Origin: a virus
Lineage: Duplodnaviria; Heunggongvirae; Uroviricota; Caudoviricetes
Reading direction: 5' to 3' (one strand)
IMG/VR virus record: IMGVR_UViG_3300012007_000010
Location: 64,001-128,000 of that record
DNA length: 64,000 nt
The notes beneath the pieces are model-generated. The model was not told the origin of the DNA. It was given only the letters and a program-made list of their open reading frames with translations, and ran no database searches. Every line of letters starts with the position of its first letter. Position 1 is the stretch's first letter. Shown here one piece after another: positions 17,834-62,337 of this stretch. Position numbers and translations under genes: made by a program.

Positions 17834-17905
17834 CGCGGAATGGAGCAGCAGTAGCTCGCCGGGCTCATAACCCGGAGGTCGATGGTGCGAACCCATCTTC
17901 CGCAA
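17834..17905 (+). tRNA. Initiator tRNA-fMet(CAT)
   Basis: C1:A72 mismatch, CCGGG-CTCATAA-CCCGG anticodon arm with three G-C pairs. Confidence 0.9.
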
Positions 17906-17982
17906 CATAGCGGCGCAGTTCACCCGACAGCCAAAACGCGGATCTCCCTCCACACCACCGCTCCGCGTCTGCGCCGCTTTCT

Positions 17983-18068
17983 GGGTAAGCGCCGAAGTTG
18001 GAGAGTCGGGGCAGACTGTAAATCTGCTGGCTTGATGCCTGAGTAGGGTCCGAATCCCACCTTGCCCA
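17983..18068 (+). tRNA. tRNA-Tyr(GTA) with atypical T-arm
   Basis: GGGTAAG/CTTGCCC acceptor, GCAGA-CTGTAAA-TCTGC anticodon arm, long variable arm; T-arm GTAGGGTCCGAATCCCAC deviates. Confidence 0.8.
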
Positions 18069-18242
18069 CATAGGATAAATTTCTTTTCACACCACCGCCG
18101 CGAGGCGCTTCTTGTACTACAATTTCTTTGCCGCTGTGAAGCGGGTGACACCAGTTTTTTGATTTGTTTTAGTAGATTAGTTTTTTTGCCGGGTCACTCC
18201 GGCAACCCATCGGGAGGTTCACGTGTAGCTCCTCTCGTTTCG

Positions 18243-18282
18243 GCAGCCGCTCCGTTGTAGCATTCGGGCGGCTGCTCTTTTT
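18243..18282 (+). terminator. Intrinsic terminator after tRNA cluster
   Basis: GCAGCCGCTCCG/CGGGCGGCTGC stem + T-run. Confidence 0.7.
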
Positions 18283-18418
18283 GATGTCTGAGGGCTGATG
18301 TCTAAAGGCTGAGTATCTTCCATCTTCCATCATCCATCTTCCATCGCATCCCGCCCTTGCGCACACGCACACGAAACACTATATTTCTCAAAAATGTCAC
18401 ACTGATTTAACAATCTTT

Positions 18419-19144
18419 ATGGACTATCACCCCTACAACCCCATCGGTCTCATGCCGCAGGAACTGCCGGACATGAAGAACCTCACGCCCGAGGAGCAGG
18501 AGCAGCTGTGCTACTCCACTGCCTTCTGCGGCTGTGCCACCTATGCCGTCGCCTTTGTCGTCGCCGTCATCCTCTGCGCCCTGCTCGGCTCCTGCGCCGC
18601 TCCGAAGGCCATCAACCGCACGGAGCATCACCACAGTGCCATCGACACGCTCAGCATCCAGGCCGCCGTCGATGCCCACATGACCAGCTGGCACCAGCGC
18701 ATGGACTCCCTCTTCCGCGAGCGCACCAGTCAGTCCAGTTTGGAGCAGCACAGCAGCACCGACCAGAAGGAACTCATCACCGAGACCGTCACCACCACCA
18801 CCGACTCCCTCGGTCGCAGCATCCGCCAGGAGCAGCGCACCATCTCCCGCGACCTCCACCAGGAGCAGCAGCAGCTCGCCCTTCGTCTGGAGCGCGAGAT
18901 GGAGAGCCGCCTGCAGACCGCCCTCGACCGTCAGGACAGCATCTGGCAGCAGCGCCTCGATGCCGCCATGAGCCACCGCGAGCAGACCGACTCCGCCCGC
19001 CACACCGTCACCCCCGTACCCCAAGACAACCGCCCCTGGTACCGCCGCTGGTCCGACCACCTGCAGTGGCTCGCCGTCGGCATCATCCTCGCCGTCGTCC
19101 TCTGGATCACCCGCCGTTGGTGGTTAGGGGTATTCCGGCGTTAA
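18419..19144 (+). CDS. Putative unimolecular spanin-like lipoprotein
   Basis: Hydrophobic helix ending LLGSC, coiled soluble middle, C-terminal TM helix followed by RRWWLGVFRR. Confidence 0.55.
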   Translation: MDYHPYNPIGLMPQELPDMKNLTPEEQEQLCYSTAFCGCATYAVAFVVAVILCALLGSCAAPKAINRTEHHHSAIDTLSIQAAVDAHMTSWHQRMDSLFRERTSQSSLEQHSSTDQKELITETVTTTTDSLGRSIRQEQRTISRDLHQEQQQLALRLEREMESRLQTALDRQDSIWQQRLDAAMSHREQTDSARHTVTPVPQDNRPWYRRWSDHLQWLAVGIILAVVLWITRRWWLGVFRR

Positions 19145-19198
19145 CCATGGTGTCGGAATAACGATATATCGAAACATCGAAATCTCAAAAAAGAAACG

Positions 19199-19528
19199 AT
19201 GATAGTAATAAGAAACAACCTCATACCCTTCCCGGACTACAAGGCCATCACCATCTGGCCCTTCATCTTCGTCCGCAAGAGCGCATGGTACAGCAACGAC
19301 ACCGACCGTCACGAGCGCATTCACGGGCGGCAGCAGCTGGAGATGCTGCTCCTGCTGTTCTATCTTTGGTATGGTCTGGAGTACATCATCCGCCTCTGGA
19401 TCACGCGCGACCACGAACGTGCCTACCGCTCCATCAGCTTCGAGCAGGAAGCCTACGCCAACGAGCGCGACGAGCAGTACCTTCAGCACCGCCGCTGGTA
19501 CGCCTGGCTGAAGTACCTCTTTAAGTGA
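19199..19528 (+). CDS. Small HExxH protein (putative metallopeptidase-like)
   Basis: RHERIH motif and ISFEQEAY distal Glu. Confidence 0.6.
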   Translation: MIVIRNNLIPFPDYKAITIWPFIFVRKSAWYSNDTDRHERIHGRQQLEMLLLLFYLWYGLEYIIRLWITRDHERAYRSISFEQEAYANERDEQYLQHRRWYAWLKYLFK

Positions 19529-19682
19529 AAAGTGAAAGGCTACGGGTAGGCGAGCTTTGCTCGGGAATGGAGTGGAATGCTACCGCAACTATTTGATAAT
19601 CAAGTAGTGGGCAAAAGCCGCAAATTTGTCACACACATTTTAAATAGTTTAACAACATAGTTTCAAGTATTAAGTTTCAAGT

Positions 19683-21905: not shown

Positions 21906-21936
21906 TTTGCAAGTAAATGAAAATTTTATATCTTTG
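21906..21936 (+). promoter_or_regulatory. Promoter heading the early region
   Basis: TTTG-N19-TATCTTTG. Confidence 0.75.
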
Positions 21937-22225: not shown

Positions 22226-22520
22226 ATTGTGCCCAGGTAGCCCGTAAAACGGCTAAAGCGGTAAAACGCTTGCATGGGTGCAAGGTAGTATCGAGCGGAC
22301 TATAATGCAGTCGGTAGTAAACGAAAGGGAATCCCGCCACGACCTGACGTGATGTCAGATTAGCAGGAAAGGCCCGGGTAGGCACTACAGACGCCAGTCT
22401 GTAGGGACAAGTGTACATTGGAGTGAACAGAACTACCGCCAGCAATGGCGGACACTATAGCCCATAGAGCAAGTGAGCACTACAGGTGCAGGGGGATCGG
22501 CACCCCCCTATGGGCACAAT
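22226..22520 (+). ncRNA. Candidate structured ncRNA / leader (~295 nt)
   Basis: 10-bp closing stem ATTGTGCCCA/TGGGCACAAT enclosing at least eight short hairpins; non-coding. Confidence 0.5.
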
Positions 22521-22557
22521 GACGCTTTTGTCAGAATCATCAAAATCAATTAAAGTT

Positions 22558-23238
22558 ATGACACAGAATGCAGTGGTCATGGAGCAGACCGTAAACGCTC
22601 CCGCTATCAATGTAGAGAACAATGTCGAGAACGTATTGGCTAACATGGAGGCTAACACCCCTGCTATCAGTCTCGACCTGTCTTTCAGTGCTATGAATAA
22701 GGCTCTGGGTGCAGTGTTCACCGAGACTATGAAGTTCAAGCAGGCTCTCAGAGTGTTCGACGGCATGGGCTCCCTCATGGTTCCTATCAGCGACAAGAAG
22801 AAGATGAAGTTCGCCGACATCCTCAGACAGGTGGGTGTGAAGTATAAGGTCGGACGTATCGACGTCGAGAGCCTGAAGAGCGCATGGAAGGTGTTCACCG
22901 AGGACGGCTACATGGCTATCTACCGGGGCGTGCCCGGCTACGAGGCTACCGAGGGCGACGAGAAAGGCCGCAAGGTCTACACATGGGACGAGAAGAAGAG
23001 CCAATATATGGGTGTATCAGTGCAGAAGATAGTGGCCGTCGAGAAGTGGAACGCCCGCCTTATACTGACGGGTATCCTGCAGGCTGCCTTCACCGAGAAG
23101 TTCGAGAAGGCGGCCAAGGAGAGCCTGGAGGCATGGGACAAGTTCGAGGGCGAGCTCTATGTGTTCGACAAGGTGACCAACAAGGACGGCGTGAACAACA
23201 AGGCCAAGGCTATCCGCAAGAGTCAGGTGGAGTTCTAA
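22558..23238 (+). CDS. Hypothetical protein, first gene of early region
   Basis: 226 aa, strong codon bias. Confidence 0.8.
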   Translation: MTQNAVVMEQTVNAPAINVENNVENVLANMEANTPAISLDLSFSAMNKALGAVFTETMKFKQALRVFDGMGSLMVPISDKKKMKFADILRQVGVKYKVGRIDVESLKSAWKVFTEDGYMAIYRGVPGYEATEGDEKGRKVYTWDEKKSQYMGVSVQKIVAVEKWNARLILTGILQAAFTEKFEKAAKESLEAWDKFEGELYVFDKVTNKDGVNNKAKAIRKSQVEF

Positions 23239-23261
23239 TCGGGGTCGGACTATCTCAGGTA

Positions 23262-23321
23262 ACAAGGGAGCGGATATGGGCACCCCTATCGGGGCGGAGG
23301 GTTCGACTCCCTCCCCTTGTG
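23262..23321 (+). ncRNA. tRNA-like mini-element (acceptor stem + T-arm, no canonical D/anticodon arms)
   Basis: ACAAGGG/CCCTTGT stacked on GAGGG-TTCGACT-CCCTC. Confidence 0.5.
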
Positions 23322-23350
23322 CAAATATTAACATCTAAACGCAAGAAGAC

Positions 23351-23767
23351 ATGACAGAAAAAGCTATCATTGCACGGATGAGACAGATTCGTGAGAGCCG
23401 CACGTTTCATCACACCAAGACCGTGACCAAACGCCAGGTGGTGGAGTACGAGAGCACTATGGTGGTCCGGGGTGGTCACAAACTGAAGGGAGCCTATCGC
23501 ACCAGCCTCCAGGTGATGAAGACCTATGAACAGGAGGAGTGGGGCGGACTGGAGAGCCGCCGTCAGATGTTCGAGGCCGGTAAGGGTACGCGCTTCACTA
23601 AGCGCACCCATGTGAACACCGGAGCCCACTATACGAAGAGCGGCGGTGTGACCTCTACCAAGCGCCCGACGGCGCATGGCGAGGTGTGCAGCGTGGGCAG
23701 GGTTATCACGGTGAAGCGGTTCAGCAACAGCCGCCTGACGTGTGTATGCAAGAGCTTGATGTATTAA
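23351..23767 (+). CDS. Hypothetical basic protein
   Basis: 138 aa. Confidence 0.65.
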   Translation: MTEKAIIARMRQIRESRTFHHTKTVTKRQVVEYESTMVVRGGHKLKGAYRTSLQVMKTYEQEEWGGLESRRQMFEAGKGTRFTKRTHVNTGAHYTKSGGVTSTKRPTAHGEVCSVGRVITVKRFSNSRLTCVCKSLMY

Positions 23768-23945
23768 GCGAGAAATAACTATCGGTAGGTTGTAGCATGT
23801 CCGGGAGCATCGCCCACAGGCACAGGCACTTGAAAGCCCACTTCTATAGGACTATCGGGAGGTGGTGAGCGGAGTGTGCGAGCTAATTGGTGCGAGGATT
23901 ATCGGCAGGCGGCAGCGTGCGGACTAAATATCGGAGGACAGAACT

Positions 23946-24092
23946 ATGACAGCGAAAGAACGTATCGACGATCTGAAGAGTGTCTATGACATCCTGAGCA
24001 AGCAGGCGCAGGGCGAAGAAGTGACAGACGTGGAGTTTAACATAGCCCGCCTATTGCTTCACAGAGTGATAGGCGACATGGAGCAAACCTAA
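23946..24092 (+). CDS. Small hypothetical protein (48 aa)
   Basis: GGAGG-N8-ATG; MTAKERIDDL... Confidence 0.65.
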   Translation: MTAKERIDDLKSVYDILSKQAQGEEVTDVEFNIARLLLHRVIGDMEQT

Positions 24093-24094
24093 CT

Positions 24095-24274
24095 ATGGCA
24101 GAACAGGCACTAATCGTAAAGCTGCGCCCCAAGTTTCAGGAACTGCGGGACGCGAGAACGTATGACGAGGCAGGCGTGAAGCGCATCCTTTACAAGTTTG
24201 CACGCAGTATTGGGTGCAAGTGGAACGACGCGAAGTTGCAGGCGTTTATAGAGCAATGCTTCAACTACGACTGA
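24095..24274 (+). CDS. Small hypothetical protein (59 aa)
   Basis: MAEQALIVKL..., abuts previous stop. Confidence 0.6.
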   Translation: MAEQALIVKLRPKFQELRDARTYDEAGVKRILYKFARSIGCKWNDAKLQAFIEQCFNYD

Positions 24275-24357
24275 TGTGACTATCGGGGCGCACGGCTGCA
24301 GGGCTGTGCGCCCCGGTTGTATCTGGACGAGACGAAAAATTATCGGAGGACAAGACT

Positions 24358-24558
24358 ATGCAAGGATTTATCGGAATCTATGCCATCTATTTCCATTCGC
24401 GGAAACGTATGGCAGACACAAGTACCTGGGGCAAGGAGAAAATGCCAAGTGACTACACGGAGCAGGAAGTGGCTCAGGCCGCACGCCTCGCAGGCTGCGA
24501 GGGCTACGCTATCGTGAAAGACAATCAAGTGAAGACTATGAAGTGGTTTGTGAACTAA
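24358..24558 (+). CDS. Hypothetical protein
   Basis: GGAGG-N8-ATG. Confidence 0.65.
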   Translation: MQGFIGIYAIYFHSRKRMADTSTWGKEKMPSDYTEQEVAQAARLAGCEGYAIVKDNQVKTMKWFVN

Positions 24559-24580
24559 AACATATCTGGAGGACAAAATC

Positions 24581-24955
24581 ATGGAGAGAACAATGACTAT
24601 CGCACAGGCCAAGGCATTTATGGCCGATGTGCAGGCTATCGTGGATCGCGAAGACCACGGCTTTTGTGACTATCAGACCTGGCAGCACCGCCACCAGGGC
24701 GCAGTGTGGGGCGAGGGTATCAGCGTGGACGTGAGCCACGACGAGGACCACGGCTGCTATCACGAGACGGTGGGCATCCACTACTACGTGCAGCATCACG
24801 AGGGCGAGGGCATTGCCTGTCTGCGCATGGACTCGCGCGAGGGTGGCACGCTGGCTAACGACAAGCCTTTCTACGGCAGCGCACAGGAGGCCGCCGACTA
24901 TCTGCTGAAGGACTATCGCGAGTGCTTCGACGACGAGAACGTGGAGTGTGTCTAA
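24581..24955 (+). CDS. Hypothetical protein
   Basis: GGAGG-N8-ATG. Confidence 0.7.
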   Translation: MERTMTIAQAKAFMADVQAIVDREDHGFCDYQTWQHRHQGAVWGEGISVDVSHDEDHGCYHETVGIHYYVQHHEGEGIACLRMDSREGGTLANDKPFYGSAQEAADYLLKDYRECFDDENVECV

Positions 24956-24980
24956 TCAAAAAAAACTGGAGGACAAAGCA

Positions 24981-25331
24981 ATGAAGACTTTTGCAAAAAT
25001 GATTGTGGCCGCTATCGTGGCCGTGTTTATGGGCGTCATGGTTATTGCCTGCGACGCAAGTGATAGCCTGGTAATCGTGACTATGTTTGCTACCGCGATC
25101 GCGGCGAGTGGGCTGCTGGGTGTGTTCGATATGCCCGCTGAGCGCACGAAGCACGACTCTATCCGCCACAAGACAGGTAACTATAGCCAGGCAGCTATAT
25201 TCGTAGGCACGGCCTGTTTGTTCATGGGCACGCAGCAGGAGTGTGAGGAACTGGCTGACGACCTGCAGCACTATGCCCAGCAGGCCCGCGTGGAGATGCT
25301 GACGGGTGAGGAGACGTTTAACGTAATCTAA
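24981..25331 (+). CDS. Hypothetical membrane protein (two N-terminal TM helices)
   Basis: GGAGG-N8-ATG; hydrophobic N-terminus. Confidence 0.65.
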   Translation: MKTFAKMIVAAIVAVFMGVMVIACDASDSLVIVTMFATAIAASGLLGVFDMPAERTKHDSIRHKTGNYSQAAIFVGTACLFMGTQQECEELADDLQHYAQQARVEMLTGEETFNVI

Positions 25332-25346
25332 TGGGAGGACTGAGTT

Positions 25347-25676
25347 ATGAAGAAGACTATCGTATGCACGTGGGTTGCTATCTGTGTGGCCATGCTGGCC
25401 TTTAACTTCAACTACACGTATAAGGCCAGCCGCGAGGCTCGGCTGTGCTATCATCTGGCCCATGCTAATGTGCGCGACGGCTATATGGACGAGGCAGACA
25501 TGGCGAGGGTGAAGCGCTTCGTGAGCCGCCAACACTCTATCATGTTTCCCGGATCGGCGTATGAGCGCCTGCGCTGCTATCGCAACAACCTGCAGCGCCA
25601 GCGCCTGTCGGCTATCGACCGCGAGATGCGTGGCGCGGTCAATGGCGCGTATTGCGCCCTGAAAGTGAACAAGTAA
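25347..25676 (+). CDS. Hypothetical protein with N-terminal TM/signal
   Basis: GGAGG-N8-ATG. Confidence 0.65.
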   Translation: MKKTIVCTWVAICVAMLAFNFNYTYKASREARLCYHLAHANVRDGYMDEADMARVKRFVSRQHSIMFPGSAYERLRCYRNNLQRQRLSAIDREMRGAVNGAYCALKVNK

Positions 25677-25723
25677 ATCTATCAAAACATCAATAACACT
25701 CAAATCAAAAGGAGAACCGAGTT

Positions 25724-25930
25724 ATGAAGAGAATCAAGACTATGGCACGCGCCGCCAAGAAGAGCGCACGTATTGTTGCTATGACCGCTGCTGTTGCAGC
25801 AAGTATGAACACCAGCATGAGCCAGGCAGAGAAGGCCGCTATGGAGTGCGCCTTCGCCGACATGGTCGATGAATACGGGCATAAAGCCCTTATCATCGAC
25901 CTGCACCCGTTCCACGGGTTTATCGCGTAA
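25724..25930 (+). CDS. Hypothetical protein
   Basis: GGAGA-N8-ATG. Confidence 0.6.
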   Translation: MKRIKTMARAAKKSARIVAMTAAVAASMNTSMSQAEKAAMECAFADMVDEYGHKALIIDLHPFHGFIA

Positions 25931-25948
25931 AGGAGGGAGGACTGGAGT

Positions 25949-26266
25949 ATGACTATACATTGCCAGGAGCGTTTCGACGCTGCACGTGCCTATGCTAAGA
26001 GCGTGGGCCTGCTGGAGAATTTCGACGAGGTGTTCAACCGCCTGAAGTCGTGGGAGGAGCGCGACTATTGCCCCGTGGAGATACACATCGGGAGCGACTT
26101 CGAGAAGCACTCGTTCACGTTCCGCGAGGAGTATCTGCGCGAGGACCTGAAGGGCCGCGACGGCATCTGCGGCGGCATCATCTATCACGGCTGCCCGAAG
26201 GAGGGCTACCGCCCGGCCATGAGCACCCAAATGTGCCCGAGCTACGGATGGCAGATACACACATAA
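25949..26266 (+). CDS. DUF4120-like protein
   Basis: CQE.FD...YA..., GGIIYHG...GWQIHT terminus recalled from DUF4120. Confidence 0.7.
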   Translation: MTIHCQERFDAARAYAKSVGLLENFDEVFNRLKSWEERDYCPVEIHIGSDFEKHSFTFREEYLREDLKGRDGICGGIIYHGCPKEGYRPAMSTQMCPSYGWQIHT

Positions 26267-26287
26267 AAGCGAGTGAGGACTGTGACT

Positions 26288-26506
26288 ATGAAAGAGCCTA
26301 AGAACGTCTGCGAGATGAGCCGCAGGCAGATTAACGCCTATTTCCGCCAGCACGACGAGAGCCGACTATGGCCCGTCTGCGGGCGGTTCAATGCCACGGA
26401 GCGGGCCATCAGGCGCACAAGGCGCAACGGCTTCGGGGCAAACGGCGGCCTGGAGTACTATCTGGCCGTGGAGAGAGAGTTAAGTGAAATCGTAAATGCA
26501 GCGTAA
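26288..26506 (+). CDS. Hypothetical protein, ends -NAA
   Basis: TGAGG-N9-ATG. Confidence 0.6.
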   Translation: MKEPKNVCEMSRRQINAYFRQHDESRLWPVCGRFNATERAIRRTRRNGFGANGGLEYYLAVERELSEIVNAA

Positions 26507-26526
26507 CAATAAAATCAGAAACAAGT

Positions 26527-26649
26527 ATGGCAAAGACTGTATCAATCAACAAGACACGCAAGGCCATCGCCTATGCGTATAACGTGAGTATCGACAATAT
26601 TCCCGAGGAAATCGAGGATCAGTTTATCAACTATCGCAAAGCAGCATGA
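26527..26649 (+). CDS. Small hypothetical protein (40 aa), ends -RKAA
   Basis: Translated by hand: MAKTVSINKTRKAIAYAYNVSIDNIPEEIEDQFINYRKAA. Confidence 0.6.
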   Translation: MAKTVSINKTRKAIAYAYNVSIDNIPEEIEDQFINYRKAA

Positions 26650-26652
26650 CCT

Positions 26653-26922
26653 ATGGCAATAATGAGCGACGCGCAGATTGCTGCGCAGTATTCGGACTTC
26701 AAGATTCTGACACTATCGGTGGAGGAGAAGGACGACTATTTCACGGGGTGCGTAGAGATAGAGTTTCCTAATGCCGACAACATCACGTTCGACGGCTATA
26801 AGTGTGACAACTTTATCGGCTATGACAAGACTGGCAACCGTATTGCCTTCGACAACTGGTACCCAGACGAGGTGTACTACAATCTGTGTCAACGAATCAA
26901 CAAACAACGTAAAGCAGCGTGA
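26653..26922 (+). CDS. Hypothetical protein, ends -RKAA
   Basis: 89 aa. Confidence 0.7.
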   Translation: MAIMSDAQIAAQYSDFKILTLSVEEKDDYFTGCVEIEFPNADNITFDGYKCDNFIGYDKTGNRIAFDNWYPDEVYYNLCQRINKQRKAA

Positions 26923-26926
26923 GACT

Positions 26927-28036
26927 ATGGCAAACGAGATTAAGACAGCGAACGGAGTGGAGTACCGCTTCGTGGGCGAGTATGGCAGCATCCGCATGGA
27001 GAACGCCAAGACCATCAACCGCTATCTGGAACTGAAGAGCGACGAACCTGACACGGAGAAGTATGGCGTGTTCTTCGCCTTCGGCAACGACCAGTTTGAG
27101 GAGGGACGCAAACGCCTTATCGCCAAGGGCTACCTGAAGGAGGGCGAGAAAGTGTGCTCGGCTGGCATGGGGCTGTATGGCATCAGCGAGGAGATAGACC
27201 GCTATCTGGGTTTCTATAAGCAGCGTCACAAGCTGCAGGGGCAGGAGTGTAGCCCGCAGGAGGTGTACTTCTACGAGTGGAACAACCACGAGTGCATGGT
27301 TTCTATGGACGACGATCCTGCGCTGAAACTGATTATCGACATCTTCGGCAAAGAGGCGGCGCACAAGATTAAGCGCGTCTATCCCGGCACTCCTACCAAC
27401 ATACTGGCACCGCTGACGGAGCGCGACAAACATCTGGGCGAGTATGACCACACGCTGAGAATGCTGGGGCGCATGGAGTTCGACCTGCACGGGTTCTTCA
27501 GCGATGGCGACTGTCGCTATCAGCGGCCCGAAGACCTATGGGCGGGCTGCGTAAAAGGCGAGATACAGAAGACAAGGGAACTATACAATGCCCTGCCAGA
27601 CGACATTAAGGACGCTTCGCCTATGACGAAGCAGGAGATAGACGACTATGCCCGACGGCTGGAGCAGTGGGCTGACGCGGAGTTCTCGAAAGCGGAGTAC
27701 GACCCCGTGCCAACGACCCGGCGCGAAGACTTGCCGCAGGAGATTGAACTGCAGAACAAACTCTACTATCGTGACGACGACGGCAACTATCAGACACCGA
27801 CGCACGTATGGTTCTCGTGCGACTCGCGCCGCTGGCACCAGGACGAGCGCATGACGCACGGCAGGGCTATGACAGCCTATCTGGGCAAGAATGGTACGAC
27901 GCTGACGCCGGTACTAATCAGCTGCTCGACCGCGCTGGGCATGAAGCCCTATCGGAGGGACGACCTGTGCAACGTGTCGGCCAAGTATGAGTATAAGCCG
28001 CTGCACGGCAGACTGTATGGGTTCTATTACGAGTAA
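26927..28036 (+). CDS. Multidomain protein with LPD11-like central domain
   Basis: VFFAFGNDQFEE module, then MLGRMEFDL..FF..LWAG....Q..RELYNALP..MT..EID.Y resembling LPD11. Confidence 0.6.
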   Translation: MANEIKTANGVEYRFVGEYGSIRMENAKTINRYLELKSDEPDTEKYGVFFAFGNDQFEEGRKRLIAKGYLKEGEKVCSAGMGLYGISEEIDRYLGFYKQRHKLQGQECSPQEVYFYEWNNHECMVSMDDDPALKLIIDIFGKEAAHKIKRVYPGTPTNILAPLTERDKHLGEYDHTLRMLGRMEFDLHGFFSDGDCRYQRPEDLWAGCVKGEIQKTRELYNALPDDIKDASPMTKQEIDDYARRLEQWADAEFSKAEYDPVPTTRREDLPQEIELQNKLYYRDDDGNYQTPTHVWFSCDSRRWHQDERMTHGRAMTAYLGKNGTTLTPVLISCSTALGMKPYRRDDLCNVSAKYEYKPLHGRLYGFYYE

Positions 28037-28079
28037 ATAAATTCATTCATCAACAAATCAAAATTCGGAGGACGAAGTT

Positions 28080-28946
28080 ATGGCAAACGAGACAATGAAG
28101 GTGGCCGACCTTATCGGCAAGAGTATCAGCAACGGCGGCAACGCCAAGTACACAATCAACAGCATCGAGGGCGACAAGGTGAAGGTGACGTTCCAGATGG
28201 GCGATAGCGAGGGTAAGCCTATGACTATGGGTGTGGCCCAGGTGGAGAAGCTGTTGCAGGGTGGCTGGACTGTTCAGGGAAGTGAAGAGTGTAGAGTGAA
28301 GAGTGAAGAGTTTGCTACCGCACAGGAGGCTCCCAAGGGCGAAGAGCCGAAGGCTAAGACGGTGAAGATGGAGCCGGAGCCTAAGCCCAAGCAGGAACAG
28401 CCCGCCAAGCCCAAGGTGACGCTGAAGCGCAAGCAGCCGCAGGCGGAGACTGAAACCAAGGCGGGCAAGCTGGTGTATAGCACTTATACGAATGCGAAGG
28501 GCAAGACGTGCGCCAAAATCAGCGGATTCACTGAGACGGACGCTGCCTATCAGAAGGAGGCCGCTGCCAGCCTGCACGGCTCGGCTACCTACGAGAACAC
28601 GAAGCAGGGGCGCGTGCAGGGGCGCGTGAACTTCCTGCTATTCGGTCCCCGCTATGCGGGGGTGGCAAAGACCATCTGCCAGATGCTCAACGAGGGCAAG
28701 ACGGTGGCCGACTGTCAGGCGGTGGTGGATGCCGCCACCGAGGAGCGTATGGCAAAGCGCGAGGAGTGGAAGCAGAAGCGCGAGACCTACCGCCAGGAGC
28801 GCGAGGAACATGGGGCAGCCAACCCTGAAACCAAGGTAAATGGAAAGGCTTACTCATCGGCTGACGTGGCCGCTATCCTACAGAAAGTGATGGCGGGCGG
28901 AAAGTTGCCCAAGGACATCGAGGAAGCTATGATGAAGGCGGCATGA
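28080..28946 (+). CDS. Hypothetical protein, ends -MKAA
   Basis: 288 aa; in-frame heptamer repeat at 28281. Confidence 0.8.
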   Translation: MANETMKVADLIGKSISNGGNAKYTINSIEGDKVKVTFQMGDSEGKPMTMGVAQVEKLLQGGWTVQGSEECRVKSEEFATAQEAPKGEEPKAKTVKMEPEPKPKQEQPAKPKVTLKRKQPQAETETKAGKLVYSTYTNAKGKTCAKISGFTETDAAYQKEAAASLHGSATYENTKQGRVQGRVNFLLFGPRYAGVAKTICQMLNEGKTVADCQAVVDAATEERMAKREEWKQKRETYRQEREEHGAANPETKVNGKAYSSADVAAILQKVMAGGKLPKDIEEAMMKAA

Positions 28947-28979
28947 GGGAGAATTGAAGAATTGAAAAATTGAAGAGTC

Positions 28980-29474
28980 ATGGATAAGGATTTCTATAAA
29001 GACCTGACGGCTGCCCTGCGTAATTCGGGGGCAGCTGGTCAGGCTGCACCGAAAGGTGACAGCAATAAGAGTGCGCCTAAGACGAGCACCGCCAAGACTG
29101 CGCCCAAGACCGACACACCCAAGACGAAGGGCGGGGCGAAGGCTGCGAGTGAGCGAGGGCAGAACGGAACTCGTTCAGGTTCTGCTGAGCGTGAGCAGGC
29201 TCGACCGAAGGTCAAGTATGTCATCCCCAAGGAGTTTAAGCAGGCTATCGAGGACTATCTGACGGGTCGGCCAGACATGAGCGAGAAGCTGAAGCAGACG
29301 GGGAAGTCGATAGACAAATGCTGCGAGTATATCTATGGCCGCATGCTGAAGCGGGCGCAGAAGGAGCGCGGCGGGGCTACCACCGTAGGGATGTATGTGG
29401 CACCGGAGGAAATCTTCGGCATGGCCGTGCATTACTACGACGAGACCGACGAGAGTTTGAAGAAGGAGGCGTAG
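28980..29474 (+). CDS. pcfK: PcfK-like protein
   Basis: FKQAIEDYL...KSIDKCCEYI...EEIFGMAVHYYDE. Confidence 0.8.
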   Translation: MDKDFYKDLTAALRNSGAAGQAAPKGDSNKSAPKTSTAKTAPKTDTPKTKGGAKAASERGQNGTRSGSAEREQARPKVKYVIPKEFKQAIEDYLTGRPDMSEKLKQTGKSIDKCCEYIYGRMLKRAQKERGGATTVGMYVAPEEIFGMAVHYYDETDESLKKEA

Positions 29475-29478
29475 GACT

Positions 29479-30792
29479 ATGACACAGAAGGAGTTTGAAC
29501 GGCAGTGTATCGCCATCAACAACCGGCTGCGGGAGCCGGGCGAGGCGACCCAGAAGTGGATAGCCGCCAAGATATTTCCCGCAGGACTTATCAGTAGGTC
29601 ATATCGCCGCCGAAGGGTGCAGTATTGCTCGGAGTGCGGCAGCGAGATAGGCGTGCCGACACAGAAGGTGTGTCCCTGCTGTGGCGCACAGTGGACGGCA
29701 GAGCCGGAGGAGTGGGAGACGCGCCAGTCGGACTACCACATGGTAATGGAGGCCAAAGGCGATATCCAGGTGTGCCGCATCTACCGCGCCGACCGCTATA
29801 CGCACATCTACAAGAAGGTGCGTATGTATGTGGCCGAGGTGGAGCGCATTATGTATGCTCCGACGGGCGAGCGCAGGGTATTCGCCAAGTCGATACAGGG
29901 CATGTCTTATTACTACGACGCCTTCAGCTGGGGTTCGCCTATCACGCTGAAGCGCGAGGGCAAGGGGATGTCGTGGAGCGCCATGATGCGCTACAACCTG
30001 ACGGTGGCGGGCTATACTATCAAAAGCCTCACACAGCAGTGGCAGCACAAGGAGATACCGGCACTGCTGAACCGCTGGGAGGGCAACACCAGTGCGCTGC
30101 GGGTGATAGCCTATCCGTGGGGCGAGACGCTGGCGAAGACGGGGCAGGTGAAACTCTTCAGCTACTTTGTCAAAGAAAAGGAACTGCTGCCACGTGGAAT
30201 GGAACATGCGCTGAACATCTGCACCCGTAATCACTACGAGATAAGCGACCCGACGATGTGGCTCGACCATATCGCTATGCTCCGACAGTTTGGGCTCGAC
30301 ACCCACAACGCCCACTATGTGTGTCCCAAGGACCTACGGGCAGCGCACCAGCTGCTGGTTGACCGCCGCAACCGTGAGCGAGTGAAGCGAGAGGCAGAAC
30401 AGCGTGCCCGCCGCTATGCTGAGCGGCTGCAACAGATGGGGCAGGAGAAGGCCGACTATCAGCAGCAGTGGGGCAAGATGCTATCACTGCAGTTGACGGC
30501 AAAGAACCTGGACATACAGCCGCTGCACACAGTGGATGAATTTGCCGCAGAAGGTGCCGCCATGCACCACTGCGTGTTCGAGAATGGCTACTACAAGTCG
30601 AAGACAAACCTTATCCTCTCGGCCAAAGACGATGAGGGGCATCGGTTGGCCACTATTGAGTACAGCATAGGCACGGGCAGCATCAAACAGTGCCGTGCGG
30701 CCTGCAATGCCGTGCCAGAGAGGGATGCGGAGATACGGACGCTTATCACCAGTCACCGGCAGGACTTCGAGCGGCTGATGAAGGCGGCGTGA
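29479..30792 (+). CDS. pcfJ: PcfJ-like protein, ends -MKAA
   Basis: N-terminal CxxC/CxxC ribbon, C-terminal EFAAEGAAMHHCV domain; follows pcfK. Confidence 0.85.
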   Translation: MTQKEFERQCIAINNRLREPGEATQKWIAAKIFPAGLISRSYRRRRVQYCSECGSEIGVPTQKVCPCCGAQWTAEPEEWETRQSDYHMVMEAKGDIQVCRIYRADRYTHIYKKVRMYVAEVERIMYAPTGERRVFAKSIQGMSYYYDAFSWGSPITLKREGKGMSWSAMMRYNLTVAGYTIKSLTQQWQHKEIPALLNRWEGNTSALRVIAYPWGETLAKTGQVKLFSYFVKEKELLPRGMEHALNICTRNHYEISDPTMWLDHIAMLRQFGLDTHNAHYVCPKDLRAAHQLLVDRRNRERVKREAEQRARRYAERLQQMGQEKADYQQQWGKMLSLQLTAKNLDIQPLHTVDEFAAEGAAMHHCVFENGYYKSKTNLILSAKDDEGHRLATIEYSIGTGSIKQCRAACNAVPERDAEIRTLITSHRQDFERLMKAA

Positions 30793-30823
30793 GTTGAGAA
30801 TTGAAATTTAAACATTCAAAGTT

Positions 30824-49299: not shown

Positions 49300-49304
49300 C
49301 GGCT

Positions 49305-49649: not shown

Positions 49650-49651
49650 CT

Positions 49652-49954: not shown

Positions 49955-49962
49955 TTACGACT

Positions 49963-50172: not shown

Positions 50173-50177
50173 CGACT

Positions 50178-60089: not shown

Positions 60090-60896
60090 TTATATGTGTG
60101 CGTCCTTCGCCTTGCCCTTCTTCTTCTTACTCTTGACAATCACGCTCTTCACGCTACCTATCGCCTGGCCGCCGAGGAAGGCCTTCATGGGAATGACCTC
60201 CAGACGGCGTTCCTTCACCACCTGCAGACGGTTGGCCGTATAGAGGCGGTCGGGGTCTGCGGCACTCATGCGCTTGGCCACCATCTGCACGTCGGCCTTG
60301 CCGATGCCACGCTCCACGCAGGTCATCGTGTTCGTGTCCTCGTGAGGGTCGCTGCTGAAGACGGCCCACTCATCGCGCTCCGTCTCGTCGTCCTCTATCG
60401 GCTCACTCTCGGCCACGTCGCGGTAGAGTCGCCAGATGCTGTCGTCGCGGTCAATCTCTATCAGCGGCTCGGTTTCGCGCGGTGCTTCCTGCGGGTCGCC
60501 CAGCTGCCAGCGGACGGGCAGCCCGGCCCAGCGCATGTACTGCTCCACGAGGTCTTCGGCCTCGCGGTTCATCTCCTGCACGCCGCCCACGGTCTGATAC
60601 TCGCGCCAGAACTTGTACCAGCGGTCGTAGGCTTGCTGGAACTCCTGGCAGGCGCGTTTGATTTCGTGCTTCTTTATCTGAGCCATGTCGAAGAGGGCGT
60701 TCACCTGTCCGTACAGGCTGTTGGATACCATCGTCAGACAGTGCATGGCGCAGAGCAGGTTGCTAATACGGCTCATCAGCCCCAGCTCCTCGGCCTTGTC
60801 GATGTCGAGCCCCTTCACGCCGACGTGCTGGATGCGCTTGCGGATGGCCTCCTTGCCGATGGCGCGGTGAAGGGGAATGTGTAGTTCGTTTTTCAT
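60090..60896 (-). CDS. Hypothetical protein
   Basis: 268 aa. Confidence 0.7.
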   Translation of the reverse strand: MKNELHIPLHRAIGKEAIRKRIQHVGVKGLDIDKAEELGLMSRISNLLCAMHCLTMVSNSLYGQVNALFDMAQIKKHEIKRACQEFQQAYDRWYKFWREYQTVGGVQEMNREAEDLVEQYMRWAGLPVRWQLGDPQEAPRETEPLIEIDRDDSIWRLYRDVAESEPIEDDETERDEWAVFSSDPHEDTNTMTCVERGIGKADVQMVAKRMSAADPDRLYTANRLQVVKERRLEVIPMKAFLGGQAIGSVKSVIVKSKKKKGKAKDAHI

Positions 60897-60955
60897 ATCG
60901 CCTGAAAAATTTTAAACAGAATTTTAAAAATAATTTTGATTGTGGCGACCCTGTA

Positions 60956-61369
60956 TCAGAATGGCAGGTCGTCGGTGCCGTTGCCTTGCTGCACGGGCTG
61001 GCCCTGGGCGTTGGTCTGCGGCGGGAAGGGCGACTGCGATGGCTGAGGGCTGACGGCTGACGGCTGAGCCTGCTGCTGATACGGCTGCTGCCCTACGGAG
61101 CGAAGCACGTTGTAGCAGCGGACCTCATTGAACCAGCGTCCGTTGTACTCGTGTGCGTCGATGTCGAACTGTATTGTGACATTCTGCTCGCCCTGACGGA
61201 GGGCGAACTGCTTGATGCGGTCTTCGCCGAAGATGCGGAAGACGATGTGGCGCGGCCACTGGCCGGGGATTTCCATTACATACTCCTGCGACATCCACGG
61301 GTTGCCCGTGCGGTTTGATGTGCCAGACTGGGCGGGCATCACTTGAATGATTGTTCCTGTTAAATCCAT
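60956..61369 (-). CDS. DUF3127 OB-fold (SSB-like) protein
   Basis: GTIIQVMPAQSG.S...W..QEYVME...FDIDAHEYNGRWFNEVRCY; acidic DDLPF tail. Confidence 0.85.
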   Translation of the reverse strand: MDLTGTIIQVMPAQSGTSNRTGNPWMSQEYVMEIPGQWPRHIVFRIFGEDRIKQFALRQGEQNVTIQFDIDAHEYNGRWFNEVRCYNVLRSVGQQPYQQQAQPSAVSPQPSQSPFPPQTNAQGQPVQQGNGTDDLPF

Positions 61370-61373
61370 TTTG

Positions 61374-61805
61374 CTATTCCTTGTTTGTTGTTTCCGTTAA
61401 TTTACGCTTCTTCTTGTCCTTCTGAAAGGGCATGAGCCGTTGCTGCTTCGGGTCGTAGGTGTGCGAGCGGACGATGCCAAGGCGGAAGGCAAAGCCCTCC
61501 TCAATCTTCGCGCCCCTCGACAACTGCCAGCCGTCTATCATGCAGATGGTGTCCGAGCGCGACAGCAGCCAGAGATCATAGACGAGCACCGTGCGGTAGG
61601 CACCGTCCTTGCCCAGCACGCGCTCCATCGCCTTGTAGAGCCACTTGAACCGGCAGGGCCAGGCGTTGGCGGGGTTGACGGCGCGAAGTCCCGTATGGCT
61701 GTTGATAAGGGTGGCGCAGTCGTGGAACGCCTGTACGTTCCGCTCCTGCTGCTCCTGCGTCGGGGCGGTCATTGCCCCAGAGATATAGATACGTTGCTTC
61801 TTCAT
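61374..61805 (-). CDS. DUF4406 (nucleoside deoxyribosyltransferase-like) protein
   Basis: RIYISGAMT, VNPA, DTICMIDGWQLSRGAKIE. Confidence 0.8.
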   Translation of the reverse strand: MKKQRIYISGAMTAPTQEQQERNVQAFHDCATLINSHTGLRAVNPANAWPCRFKWLYKAMERVLGKDGAYRTVLVYDLWLLSRSDTICMIDGWQLSRGAKIEEGFAFRLGIVRSHTYDPKQQRLMPFQKDKKKRKLTETTNKE

Positions 61806-61826
61806 TTTGTTTCTTGTTATCAATAA

Positions 61827-62057
61827 TCAGAATATCGTCGATGTTGTTTCCTCAGAGAACAATATATTGCATACTGCCACACGATGCTTCTTTTGCTCTC
61901 TAACCGCAGTAAAAGCCGTGTTGTCGTTATCGGGGTAAACCTCTCTGGCGTAAATTCTCACTTCGGATGCCTTTGCACCCAGTTCATTTTCCATATCGCG
62001 GAACAATCTCTTAAAAGCATCCTGATAGTCCGCAATAGTCTTTTTCTTCTGTGCCAT
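61827..62057 (-). CDS. Hypothetical protein
   Basis: 76 aa. Confidence 0.6.
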   Translation of the reverse strand: MAQKKKTIADYQDAFKRLFRDMENELGAKASEVRIYAREVYPDNDNTAFTAVREQKKHRVAVCNILFSEETTSTIF

Positions 62058-62127
62058 AATCGTTTATTCGTTTCTGTTTTTATTGATGGCCTGTCGGCCA
62101 GGAATTTGTTAAATAAAAACTTCTCGC

Positions 62128-62337
62128 TTATCTGTGTCTATGCCTTTTGTTCATCAGGTAGATGCCGTATTCTTTTGGTGACATAGTATTGTATGCGTTC
62201 TCTATCCGTTGCCGTTCAGCCTCGATGCTGGCAGCGGCCTCGATGCCGTATTCATCCTTCATGACCGTTGCCAGTTCGTTAACCTCCTTGGTCGAAAGTC
62301 TAACCAATGCTTCGGCTATTGATTTGATGTCTGCCAT
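62128..62337 (-). CDS. Ribosomal protein bL12 (L7/L12) N-terminal domain fused to a novel basic tail
   Basis: [36 protein letters not shown] closely matches the recalled Bacteroidota bL12 N-terminus; no hinge/CTD. Confidence 0.85.

What the first reader, a model, noticed from the sequence alone, without database searches (positions are those of the whole stretch)
17834..62337. Possible integrated translation/turnover control system: bL12-NTD chimera + SD-marked early mRNAs + own tRNA-fMet + degron-tagged products
Inference joining separately observed parts. One gene class is marked at initiation (GGAGG-N8-ATG), along the transcript (CTAT excess) and at the protein end (-AA). A gene in the middle block encodes a stalk-binding bL12 fragment lacking the IF2/EF-recruiting domain, and the phage supplies its own initiator tRNA. 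Together these could form a timer that switches ribosomes away from early mRNAs while early proteins are degraded. The linkage is unproven.
Basis: inference. Interest (0 to 1): 0.7.

Follow-up and report, generated by a model that had tools for sequence, protein, structure and literature searches.

The report
Early anti-defence block; unlinked translation genes

Summary
The window is half of a 129.7-kb uncultured phage of Bacteroidales, with plasmid-like ParA and c4-type RNA.

All five observations hold:
- GGAGG-N7-9-ATG starts on 10 genes, in a genome otherwise free of Shine-Dalgarno (SD) motifs.
- A 4-fold, strand-specific CTAT excess.
- Eleven proteins ending in -AA (about 1.1 expected).
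- A 69-aa protein made of the bL12 N-terminal domain plus a conserved basic tail.
- A tRNA with initiator hallmarks.

The first three mark one rightward block at window 22.4-50.5 kb. It starts at a canonical Bacteroides promoter and encodes ArdC-type, PcfJ/K, DnaJ-LPD29, BRCT and methylase-helicase proteins. CTAT and -AA recur around ArdC in all 17 related viral contigs examined; the GGAGG starts recur in 16 of the 17. None of the three occurs around the chromosomal ArdC homologues. Within the block, SD and -AA do not mark the same genes (3 shared of 10 and 10; P=0.67).

Among 13 near-complete relatives, the bL12 fragment occurs in 2 and tRNA-fMet in 2, together only here. The fragment also occurs in an unrelated low-GC phage.

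So the proposed timer fails its own refutation test. My best reading is an early burst module whose flexible -AA tails copy the end of the host ssrA tag (…LAA). CTAT is unexplained. The scan had noted the single parts before on this same DNA.

The parts
17834..17906 (+). Initiator-type tRNA-Met(CAT). Accessory gene, not part of the block.
   Evidence: ARAGORN; Rfam 58.6 bits. C1xA72, three G:C pairs in the anticodon stem and A11:U24 read. 78-80% identical to host-lineage initiators, with an A18/G55 double change.
21906..21936 (+). Canonical Bacteroides-type promoter (TTTG-N19-TAnnTTTG) in front of the block.
   Evidence: 6 matches in the window against 0.38 expected. This one lies about 550 nt upstream of the first block gene.
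22486..50488 (+). Rightward early anti-defence/establishment block of 45 called genes. It carries all three cis marks. CTAT density is highest at 22.4-33.7 kb and decays rightwards.
   Evidence: Gene call. CTAT. Pfam/PHROG hits. No CTGCCC word in block intergenic regions.
23933..26266 (+). Cluster of eight small genes. Six are led by GGAGGAC-N6-ATG (starts 23946, 24358, 24581, 24981, 25347, 25949) and one by a weaker GGAGA (25724). The last one is DUF4120.
26273..26506 (+). 77-aa protein ending -NAA.
26527..26649 (+). 40-aa protein ending -KAA. The G001 orthologue also ends -KAA.
28067..28946 (+). SD-led 288-aa protein of unknown family ending -KAA.
   Evidence: The G001 orthologue ends -MAA.
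29465..30792 (+). SD-led (N9) PcfJ-like protein, 437 aa, ending -KAA.
   Evidence: Pfam PF14284, 112 bits.
30824..31897 (+). ArdC-N plus zincin MPTase protein, 357 aa, ending -MAA.
   Evidence: Pfam and PHROG hits. 111 of 120 homologues end -AA. The last 8 residues have pLDDT below 50.
36358..37317 (+). SD-led (N7) 315-aa protein ending -AAA.
   Evidence: The orthologue ends -QAA.
37580..38998 (+). DnaJ plus LPD29 protein, 472 aa, ending -QAA.
39033..39299 (+). BRCT-domain protein, 88 aa, ending -LAA.
40420..40830 (+). SD-led (N7) HNH endonuclease, 132 aa. It does not end in -AA.
42105..47339 (+). Eco57I-type methylase plus SNF2 helicase, 1744 aa, ending -RAA.
   Evidence: The orthologue ends -QAA.
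49305..49649 (+). 114-aa protein ending -KAA.
62128..62337 (-). 69-aa protein: bL12 N-terminal domain plus a conserved tail (SPKxYG[IM]xL..basic). Accessory gene in the leftward DNA-metabolism block.
   Evidence: Neighbours are DUF4494, DUF3127, DUF4406 and Dam.

Best explanation
There are two separate things here.

(A) A conserved early block of anti-defence/establishment genes. It contains ArdC-MPTase, PcfJ/PcfK, DUF4120, LPD11, DnaJ-LPD29, BRCT and a methylase-SNF2 helicase. A clade of 100-145-kb Bacteroidales phages shares it.
- Shown: it starts at a host-type promoter. It carries three cis signatures that are specific to this clade's version of these genes: GGAGG(AC)-N7/8-ATG initiation regions, a polar CTAT(S) excess written with synonymous codons, and [R/K/A]-[K/Q/M]-A-A C-termini on about ten unrelated proteins.
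- Inferred: the block is built for a short burst of expression after entry. The host RNA polymerase would transcribe it. The SD-led genes would be read best by host ribosomes whose anti-SD is free, because Bacteroidia normally hide it under bS21/bS18/bS6. Host ClpXP would remove the products through the exposed di-alanine end, which copies the last residues of the host ssrA tag.
- CTAT acts through density rather than fixed sites. Its reader, on RNA or on DNA, is unknown.

(B) Two unrelated accessory genes. One is an initiator tRNA. The other is a 69-aa protein that keeps only the dimerisation/uL10-docking domain of host bL12 and adds a conserved basic tail. Each comes and goes among relatives independently of the block and of the other. 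I see no evidence that (A) and (B) form one system.
For: Host and genome:
- The record is a 129,669-bp virus record, CheckV 100%.
- Most genes have A-rich leaders without SD.
- The nearest ArdC homologues lie in rumen Bacteroidaceae/Prevotellaceae MAG contigs.
- The bL12 N-terminal domain is 72% identical to Bacteroidaceae bL12.

Block content.

Promoter. No CTGCCC word in block intergenic regions.

Conservation of the trio:
- CTAT excess and -AA tails recur around ArdC in all 17 clade loci; GGAGG-led starts recur in 16 of the 17.
- In the 12 clade loci profiled, CTAT rises abruptly at the block start and decays slowly.
- 74 chromosomal ArdC loci and 26 distant viral ArdC loci lack the trio.

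-AA acts at the protein level:
- 111 of 120 ArdC homologues (47-90% identity) end -AA.
- Orthologue pairs keep AA while upstream residues change.
- All four Ala codons and all three stop codons are used in 92 tails.
- Host-lineage tmRNA tags end ALAA.
- The ArdC tail is coil with pLDDT below 50.
- In an unbiased E. coli screen the strongest C-terminal degrons were ClpXP-dependent, and 91% of the top 100 ended Ala-Ala (PMC10862746).
- The phage has no ClpP of its own.

SD:
- 67 unique sites in the clade, with spacing peaked at N8 (41) and N7 (19).
- The 16S rRNA 3' end of Phocaeicola vulgatus, a cultured Bacteroidales stand-in for the unknown host, pairs with GGAGG only.
- Bacteroidia hide the anti-SD, and ribosomes lacking bS21 gain SD-dependent initiation (PMC7797042, PMC9976891).

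CTAT:
- Sites fall in codon phases 1 and 2 and are made by synonymous choices.
- ArdC orthologues keep 7-15 sites per gene with 0-1 ATAG, while the individual sites turn over.

Independence of (B).
Against: - No expression, stability or ribosome-binding data exist. No RNA run holds this DNA.
- The residue at -3 is mostly K, Q or M, not the Leu of ssrA. In E. coli, terminal AA is necessary but not sufficient (PMC10862746). ClpX specificity in Bacteroidales is untested.
- The SD core is only 5 bp, whereas the known Bacteroidia case (rpsU) needs an extended SD (PMC9976891).
- The conserved AC after GGAGG is not complementary to the 16S tail of the stand-in host, so something else may read this motif.
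- GGAGG-led starts were absent from one of the 17 viral clade loci (L129) and from several clade contigs binned in bacterial MAGs that still have -AA and CTAT (the latter had only 6-kb flanks).
- The 17 loci share descent, so their agreement is not 17 independent events.
- With only 13 near-complete genomes, the independence test for bL12N and tRNA-fMet has little power to detect a weak association.
Confidence: 0.62

Rival explanations
1. The bL12 N-terminal fragment occupies the ribosomal stalk, and with the phage initiator tRNA it switches ribosomes away from SD-led early mRNAs while the -AA-tagged early proteins are degraded.
For: All parts exist in this one genome. The fragment's N-terminal domain is host-like (72%), so docking on uL10 or pairing with host bL12 is chemically plausible from established knowledge of the stalk.
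Against: The parts assort independently. The fragment occurs in 2 of 13 near-complete clade genomes and tRNA-fMet in 2 of 13, together only here. The fragment also occurs in an unrelated 29%-GC phage with no -AA genes among my calls and only 4 GGAGG-led genes. None of 22 other records with this tRNA type has the fragment. The fragment's gene sits at different places in G000 and G001. No known mechanism makes stalk composition discriminate between SD-led and SD-less mRNAs.
Confidence: 0.05
2. The -AA tail is an addressing signal for packaging into the virion and co-injection with the DNA, not a degron. The model is phage P1 Dar proteins or polyvalent proteins: anti-restriction proteins are loaded late and act on arrival.
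For: The block uses the 'polyvalent protein' domain vocabulary (ArdC-N, MPTase, LPD11, LPD29). Iyer et al. argue these proteins are often packaged or transferred with the DNA (PMC5512222). The 1744-aa methylase-helicase resembles P1 DarB in make-up (my knowledge). A shared terminal signal on many unrelated proteins is what a sorting tag looks like.
Against: The block starts at a host-type promoter, and I found no late-promoter word inside it. It lies apart from the head and tail genes. Proteins of 40, 77 and 88 aa carry the tail too. In my gene calls none of the head, tail or lysis genes ends -AA; the single -AA gene outside the block is the DGR reverse transcriptase. No known capsid-targeting signal is a bare C-terminal di-alanine (my knowledge). 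R388 ArdC is needed in the recipient, not the donor (PMC7213743).
Confidence: 0.17
3. The three marks are relics of ancestry rather than signals. The block was taken from a donor that uses SD, such as a Firmicutes conjugative element, and still carries that donor's ribosome sites, codon habits and protein ends.
For: PcfJ/PcfK and ArdC families are typical of conjugative elements. Homologues at about 33% identity occur in Lachnospiraceae, Streptococcus and Subdoligranulum bins. Codon use in the block differs from the rest of the genome.
Against: The marks persist down to 39% ArdC identity. CTAT sites turn over while their density and strand bias are kept. The enrichment is specific to CTAT and is not a general composition shift. 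AA is kept with all four codons while neighbouring residues drift. The conjugative-element homologues lack all three marks. Block GC equals that of the genome.
Confidence: 0.08
4. CTAT is a DNA-level polar signal, not an RNA signal. Examples would be a Chi-like motif that stops the host AddAB-type nuclease, or co-oriented sites that defeat a type III-like restriction enzyme. The block's marks would then serve different, unrelated purposes.
For: The strand bias is strict: 20-43 CTAT against 0-5 ATAG per 2 kb. Density is kept with site turnover, as for Chi or KOPS-type motifs. T7 escapes EcoP15I because all its sites share one orientation (my knowledge).
Against: Orientation alone needs no 4-8-fold enrichment. 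The block is not at a fixed distance from the terminal repeats in the four relatives that have them (coordinates; one search end types). The onset coincides with the start of a transcription unit, which fits an RNA-level or transcription-coupled reading equally well.
Confidence: 0.08

Closest known systems
ssrA (tmRNA) tag and natural ClpXP C-terminal degrons
   Same: A free C-terminal Ala-Ala on a flexible tail. Host-lineage tags end ALAA. Terminal AA is the critical determinant in E. coli (PMC10862746, PMC7652416).
   Different: The tail is encoded in the genes, not added by tmRNA. It sits on about ten different phage proteins. Position -3 is mostly K, Q or M rather than L. Degradation is untested.
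Phage T4 early-gene shut-off through RegB cleavage of GGAG in Shine-Dalgarno sites
   Same: A subset of early phage genes is distinguished by a GGAG-containing ribosome site.
   Different: This genome has no RegB homologue. The host phylum does not normally use SD at all, so here the motif sets these genes apart from both host and other phage mRNAs.
Specialised translation of strong-SD mRNAs (rpsU, rpsR) by Bacteroidia ribosomes lacking bS21/bS18 (PMC9976891, PMC7797042)
   Same: SD-led messages in an SD-blind host. Spacing is canonical and the GGAGG core is complementary to the 16S 3' tail of the stand-in host P. vulgatus.
   Different: The pairing is only 5 bp, against up to 13 bp for rpsU. 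The genes are phage genes. The phage has no bS21 gene. No functional data exist.
Virus-encoded ribosomal proteins (Mizuno et al. 2019, PMC6375957)
   Same: A phage gene derived from host bL12, one of the two ribosomal proteins most often found in viruses.
   Different: The published viral bL12 genes carry the C-terminal, factor-binding domain (Pfam Ribosomal_L12). This family keeps only the N-terminal dimerisation/uL10-binding domain and adds a new conserved basic tail.
Polyvalent-protein / leading-region anti-defence modules of conjugative elements and phages (PMC5512222; ArdC of R388, PMC7213743)
   Same: The same domain families: ArdC-N plus MPTase, LPD11, LPD29, PcfJ/K and a methylase-helicase. 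They are placed together as an establishment block.
   Different: The proteins are split into separate genes. They carry SD, CTAT and -AA marks that the Bacteroidales chromosomal homologues lack.
Phage-encoded initiator tRNAs
   Same: A tRNA-Met(CAT) with all bacterial initiator identity elements.
   Different: It has an A18/G55 double change at the D-loop/T-loop contact, relative to host G18/U55. The same T-loop recurs in 24 viral contigs.

Membership tests
Ribosomal protein bL12 (L7/L12) | N-terminal dimerisation/uL10-binding domain (Pfam PF16320) | tested here: met
   29.3 bits against a cut-off of 25. 72% identity over 32 aa to Bacteroidaceae bL12. Two helices at residues 4-12 and 16-30 in the model.
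Ribosomal protein bL12 (L7/L12) | Ala/Gly-rich flexible hinge followed by the factor-binding C-terminal domain (PF00542) | tested here: not met
   The protein ends at residue 69. After residue 36 it diverges from bL12 into a linker and the tail SPKxYG[IM]xL..basic. It is therefore not a bL12, only a derivative of its N-terminal domain.
Ribosomal protein bL12 (L7/L12) | Binds the C-terminal helix of uL10 on the ribosome | tested here: inconclusive
   The one complex prediction gave no verdict. No biochemical test was possible.
Bacterial initiator tRNA (tRNA-fMet) | CAU anticodon, C1xA72 mismatch, three consecutive G:C pairs in the anticodon stem, A11:U24 | tested here: met
   Read and aligned with three host-lineage initiators.
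Bacterial initiator tRNA (tRNA-fMet) | Canonical elbow contacts (G18-U55, G19-C56) | tested here: not met
   The phage tRNA has A18 and G55. The same pair is in the G011 copy. Function is not testable here.
ssrA-like ClpXP C-terminal degron | Terminal Ala-Ala with a free carboxylate on an accessible tail | tested here: met
   11 genes here and 92 unique tails in the clade. The last 8 residues of ArdC are coil with pLDDT below 50.
ssrA-like ClpXP C-terminal degron | Hydrophobic residue (Leu) at -3, as in the YALAA-like consensus | tested here: not met
   Position -3 is K 35%, Q 17%, M 12%, L 4%. The ArdC family does have L, M, I or V at -3.
ssrA-like ClpXP C-terminal degron | ClpXP-dependent degradation | not testable with these tools
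   This needs half-life measurements in wild-type and clpX/clpP strains.
Shine-Dalgarno-led initiation | Core complementary to the 16S 3' tail, at 5-9 nt from the start codon | tested here: met
   GGAGG against ...CACCUCCUUUCU of P. vulgatus, a stand-in for the unknown host. Spacing is N8 in 41 and N7 in 19 of 67 sites.
Shine-Dalgarno-led initiation | The host ribosome uses the pairing | not testable with these tools
   Published work says Bacteroidia ribosomes hide the anti-SD, except when bS21 is lacking (PMC7797042, PMC9976891).
   The bL12 fragment occurs in 2 of 13 and tRNA-fMet in 2 of 13 near-complete clade genomes, both in 1 of 13. The fragment also occurs outside the clade.
ArdC-type anti-restriction protein | ArdC-N ssDNA-binding domain plus a zincin HExxH metallopeptidase domain | tested here: met
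   PF08401 at 44 bits and PF18818 at 98 bits. HEMAHS is invariant in the alignment.

The most novel reading that the evidence does not exclude
A clade of Bacteroidales phages, probably phage-plasmids, writes a dedicated 'early-expression code' into its anti-defence block. The code would have three parts: SD sites that recruit only the sub-population of host ribosomes with an exposed anti-SD; a dense polar CUAU/CTAT word read by an unknown factor; and gene-encoded di-alanine degrons that hand the products to host ClpXP. Together they would give a self-limiting burst. Separately, a bL12 N-terminal-domain protein with a basic tail would remodel the ribosomal stalk in some members.
Probability: 0.2. 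Interest if true: 0.8.

Novelty: new variant of a known kind. Interest (0 to 1): 0.5.

Why it matters
The block-level reading gives three cheap, direct tests in Bacteroides genetics.
- Can natural mRNAs exploit ribosomes with a free anti-SD? This is an open question raised by the F. johnsoniae work.
- Do phages program the lifetime of their own anti-defence proteins with ssrA-like ends?
- What reads a four-letter polar word kept at 4-8-fold excess over more than 10 kb?

It also corrects an attractive but unsupported story. The truncated bL12 and the initiator tRNA should be studied as independent accessory genes, not as parts of a timer.

Tried and rejected
- **Complex prediction.** I folded the uL10 C-terminal region of a rumen Bacteroidaceae MAG with two copies of the bL12 fragment. 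The score was 0.20, below the mark of 0.32, so there is no verdict. Two earlier attempts with a Swiss-Prot reference were not accepted.
- **Fold search.** Foldseek of the fragment model against the PDB gave nothing at E<=0.001. A profile search of PDB sequences gave only weak bL12 N-terminal-domain hits, E 0.4-0.9.
- **Expression.** No RNA holder was listed for the block in public runs, so no reads were laid.
- **DNA similarity.** Megablast of 24 kb against deposited phages matched only the tRNA.
- **Genes sought in the phage and not found.** bS21, T4 RegB, ClpP.
- **Leader RNA.** The 546-nt leader after the promoter is not more stable than shuffles (z=0.57), so I dropped the structured-leader idea.
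- **CUAU-binding protein.** A literature look for a CUAU-binding protein in Bacteroides found none in the RbpB CLIP-seq paper or in the search.
- **Stop-codon or DNA-level reading of -AA.** I considered that the -AA ends reflect stop-codon recoding or a DNA motif (GCGGCGTGA). I rejected this because all four Ala codons and all three stop codons occur in 92 tails.
- **tRNA as attachment site.** I considered that the tRNA marks a prophage attachment site. I rejected this because the record is a complete virus genome and the tRNA lies inside it.
- **The 4187-aa protein** has no Pfam hit.

Full report
**What the window is**

The 64-kb window is bases 64,001-128,000 of a 129,669-bp IMG/VR virus record that CheckV rates complete. 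GC is about 55%.

My own gene call gives 148 genes. The other half of the genome holds a head-maturation protease, a tail protein, a diversity-generating retroelement reverse transcriptase and a 4187-aa protein.

The window holds ParA, a DnaA_N/IstB-like loader and several DNA methylases. It also holds a c4-2 antisense RNA and an IS transposase. This looks like a phage with a plasmid-like side.

Several results point to a Bacteroidales host:
- Most genes have A-rich leaders with no Shine-Dalgarno (SD) motif.
- The closest ArdC homologues lie on contigs binned with rumen Bacteroidaceae and Prevotellaceae.
- The captured bL12 domain is 72% identical to Bacteroidaceae bL12.

**Check of the five observations**

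*(i) tRNA at 17834-17906.* It is tRNA-Met(CAT). It shows C1xA72, three G:C pairs in the anticodon stem and A11:U24, so it is an initiator by sequence. It is one of only two tRNAs in the genome.

*(ii) The bL12 fragment.*
- The ORF 62128-62355 (-) matches Pfam Ribosomal_L12_N above its cut-off.
- Twenty-four close homologues are 69-89 aa long and start at MADIK, so the real protein is 69 aa, at 62128-62337.
- After residue ~36 the bL12 hinge and C-terminal domain are replaced by a variable linker and a conserved tail, SPKxYG[I/M]xL followed by basic residues.
- About 13 clusters at 50% identity share this build. One is a 52-aa form in which the tail follows the domain directly.
- The model has four helices, with mean pLDDT 79.

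*(iii) GGAGG-N8-ATG.* It occurs 15 times at N=8, against about 5.7 expected per spacing. Ten hits are real starts in window 23.9-40.4 kb. Two of them correct my first start calls (24981 and 36370).

*(iv) CTAT.*
- There are 142 copies on the + strand of 22.4-33.7 kb, against 34 expected from the other coding strands. The reverse word ATAG is not enriched.
- Sites fall in codon phases 1 and 2 and are made by synonymous choices: TAT over TAC, and more GCT.
- The only extra context is C or G after the word.

*(v) -AA ends.* Eleven of 148 proteins end -AA, against about 1.1 expected (P=2e-8). Ten of the 45 block genes do so, against 1 of 103 elsewhere (P=2.7e-5).

**Are the three cis marks one gene class?**

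They are not, at the level of genes. In the 45-gene block, 10 genes are SD-led and 10 end -AA. Three are both, which is what chance predicts (Fisher P=0.67). CTAT is a gradient over the region, not a property of particular genes.

They are, at the level of the region. All three sit in one rightward block. That block starts about 550 nt after a canonical Bacteroides promoter, TTTG-N19-TAnnTTTG at 21906-21936 (6 such matches in the window against 0.38 expected). I found none in the block's intergenic regions. I could not see the full motif, so this is weak evidence that the block is not late.

**What the block encodes**

Identified products:
- DUF4120
- an LPD11/DUF7659 protein
- PcfK- and PcfJ-like proteins
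- ArdC-N plus a zincin MPTase
- a DnaJ-LPD29 protein
- a BRCT protein
- an HNH nuclease
- a 1744-aa Eco57I-type methylase plus SNF2 helicase

This is the domain vocabulary of the 'polyvalent proteins' and leading-region establishment genes of conjugative elements and phages (PMC5512222). R388 ArdC acts in the recipient against type I restriction (PMC7213743).

**Relatives: the cis marks**

A scan of IMG/VR with an ArdC alignment found 17 loci on 55-144-kb contigs with at least 39% ArdC identity, plus 26 loci with distant ArdC.
- Around ArdC the 17 clade loci carry 2-9 -AA tails and strongly more CTAT than ATAG, for example 267 against 24. Sixteen of them also carry 1-10 GGAGG-N7-9-ATG starts; one (L129) has none. 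The distant loci carry none of the three marks.
- In each of the 12 clade loci profiled, CTAT jumps at the block start and declines over 15-20 kb.
- Seventy-four chromosomal ArdC loci of Bacteroidales, at about 30% identity, have CTAT 4.4/kb against ATAG 3.5/kb and 0.5 SD-led starts per locus. Their ArdC proteins end -LKI, -LSIV, -LSIA and the like, not -AA.

The trio is therefore specific to this phage clade's version of the block. SD is the least constant mark. Besides L129, I found no GGAGG-led start in several clade contigs binned in bacterial MAGs that keep -AA and CTAT, though these were seen with only 6-kb flanks.

**Relatives: the two trans parts**

Among 16 clade records, 12 of them at least 90% complete:
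- the bL12 fragment occurs only in G001, which has no tRNA at all;
- tRNA-Met occurs only in G011;
- tRNA-Gln occurs in three records and tRNA-Tyr in one.

Counting this genome, the fragment is in 2 of 13, tRNA-fMet is in 2 of 13, and both are in 1 of 13 (Fisher P=0.29).

Further results point the same way:
- The fragment is also in G002, a 158-kb, 29%-GC phage that shares 4 of this genome's 148 genes. G002 has no -AA genes among my calls, and its tRNAs are all tRNA-Arg.
- Twenty-four viral contigs carry an initiator-like tRNA with the same unusual T loop. None of the 22 that could be searched has the fragment.
- In G001 the fragment's gene lies beside the orthologue of window gene 9610-10887. 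Here it lies between DUF4494/120-aa and DUF4406 genes.

That is what I find, with the caveat that 13 genomes give little power against a weak association.

**How the -AA ends most likely work**

The signal acts on the protein, not the DNA:
- 111 of 120 ArdC homologues at 47-90% identity end -AA, and most of the rest end -VA, -AV or -SA.
- Orthologue pairs keep AA while the residues before it change: AMMKAA/VNAMAA, HYKAAA/HYQQAA, AQKQAA/TARQAA, GMKRAA/GLKQAA.
- In 92 unique tails all four Ala codons and all three stop codons are used.

The consensus is [R/K/A]-[K/Q/M]-A-A.

Several results fit a ClpXP-type degron:
- Host-lineage tmRNA tags are GNNEYALAA, GNENYALAA and GNNNFALAA.
- In the ArdC model the last helix ends at residue 346, and the last 8 residues are coil with pLDDT below 50.
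- In E. coli, an unbiased screen found that the strongest C-terminal degrons are ClpXP-dependent. 91% of the top 100 end Ala-Ala, and AA is necessary but not sufficient (PMC10862746).
- The phage has no ClpP of its own.

I therefore rank a host-ClpXP degron first, at about 45% on its own. A virion-packaging or injection tag comes second. The host-type promoter, the separation from head genes and the very small size of some tagged proteins argue against packaging, but they do not exclude it.

**How the SD sites might work**

Across the clade there are 67 unique sites with spacing N8 (41) or N7 (19). The shared form is AAAWTTY-GGAGGAC-WRAnnT-ATG.

The 16S rRNA of Phocaeicola vulgatus, a cultured Bacteroidales stand-in for the unknown host, ends ...GGAACACCUCCUUUCU. 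Only the GGAGG core can pair with it. The conserved AC cannot.

Bacteroidia ribosomes hide this tail under bS21/bS18/bS6 and ignore SD. Ribosomes lacking bS21 gain SD-dependent initiation, and Bacteroidales carry strong SDs on rpsR (PMC7797042, PMC9976891).

The inference is that these phage genes are read best by ribosomes with a free anti-SD. This is untested. The short pairing and the unexplained AC count against a simple version of the idea. The genome has no bS21 and no RegB homologue.

**CTAT**

In 11 ArdC orthologues there are 7-15 CTAT and 0-1 ATAG per ~1.07 kb. Close relatives retain sites more often than neutral decay predicts, for example 13 of 15 against 48% expected. Over longer distances the sites turn over while the density stays.

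This is the behaviour of a motif that works through density and polarity. The onset at the start of a transcription unit fits an RNA-level or transcription-coupled reader. A DNA-level polar signal (Chi-like, or co-oriented restriction sites) is not excluded. I found no known reader.

**The bL12 fragment**

Established knowledge of the stalk says that the N-terminal domain dimerises and docks on uL10, and that the missing C-terminal domain recruits IF2, EF-Tu and EF-G.

A host-like N-terminal domain with a new basic tail could take stalk positions or pair with host bL12. It could equally use the domain merely as a dimerisation module. Nothing here tests this.

The published viral bL12 genes are of the C-terminal-domain type (PMC6375957), so this build is a distinct small family.

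**Verdict**

The sequence observations are sound. The conserved, clade-specific trio on the early anti-defence block is interesting and, as far as my searches show, unreported.

The proposed integrated system that includes the bL12 fragment and the initiator tRNA is not supported.

The single parts were already noted by this scan on this same DNA.

Noticed in passing
window 17834-17906; L156:1500-1572: The phage tRNA-fMet has A18 and G55 where host initiators have G18 and U55. This is a paired change at the D-loop/T-loop contact. The copy in relative G011 is identical at 72 of 73 positions, and the same GGTGCGAA T loop occurs in initiator-like tRNAs on 24 IMG/VR contigs.
   Followed up: partly
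L160:2722-3031 (relative G011): A related 141.6-kb phage carries a bona fide tmRNA (Rfam RF00023, 64 bits, E 5e-24). ARAGORN reads its tag as ending ...QMLAAA. A clade that ends its own proteins in -AA thus has a member with its own tagging RNA.
   Followed up: partly
window 11738-12604, 15419-16306, 40033-40110: ParA ATPase, a DnaA_N/IstB-like loader and a c4-2 antisense RNA occur together. This suggests a P1-like phage-plasmid lifestyle in Bacteroidales.
   Followed up: no
window 21776-21830: Four tandem copies of a 13-nt unit (GGTGCAAAGGTAG-like) lie about 100 nt upstream of the early promoter. They could be an operator or iteron array.
   Followed up: no
window 23933-40424 and clade loci L113-L128: The ribosome-site motif is a 7-mer, GGAGGAC (39 of 67 sites), with an AAAWTTY flank. 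The AC cannot pair with the 16S tail of P. vulgatus (the stand-in host), so another factor may read it.
   Followed up: partly
L036-L109 (Bacteroidales chromosomes): Conjugative-element ArdC homologues have their own conserved hydrophobic ends (-KSLSIV, -SLSIA/-SLSMA, -HRMKI, -RGLKI). The C-terminus seems to matter there too, but with a different code.
   Followed up: no
window 9228-9299: tRNA-Gln(CTG) is found in three clade relatives as well as here. Among the relatives it is more widespread than the initiator tRNA.
   Followed up: partly
window 40846-41961: An IS-type transposase (PHROG 506, E 3e-96) is inserted in the block. It lies just after the SD-led HNH gene and the c4-2 RNA, and it was missed by my coding-potential gene call.
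   Followed up: no
G000 46692-59255 (-), outside the window: A 4187-aa protein lies next to the head genes and has no Pfam hit at all.
   Followed up: no
window 22366-22522: Parts of the long leader and the first gene start are conserved at 77-80% in distant clade members (L125, L126, L034). The leader as a whole is not unusually stable.
   Followed up: partly
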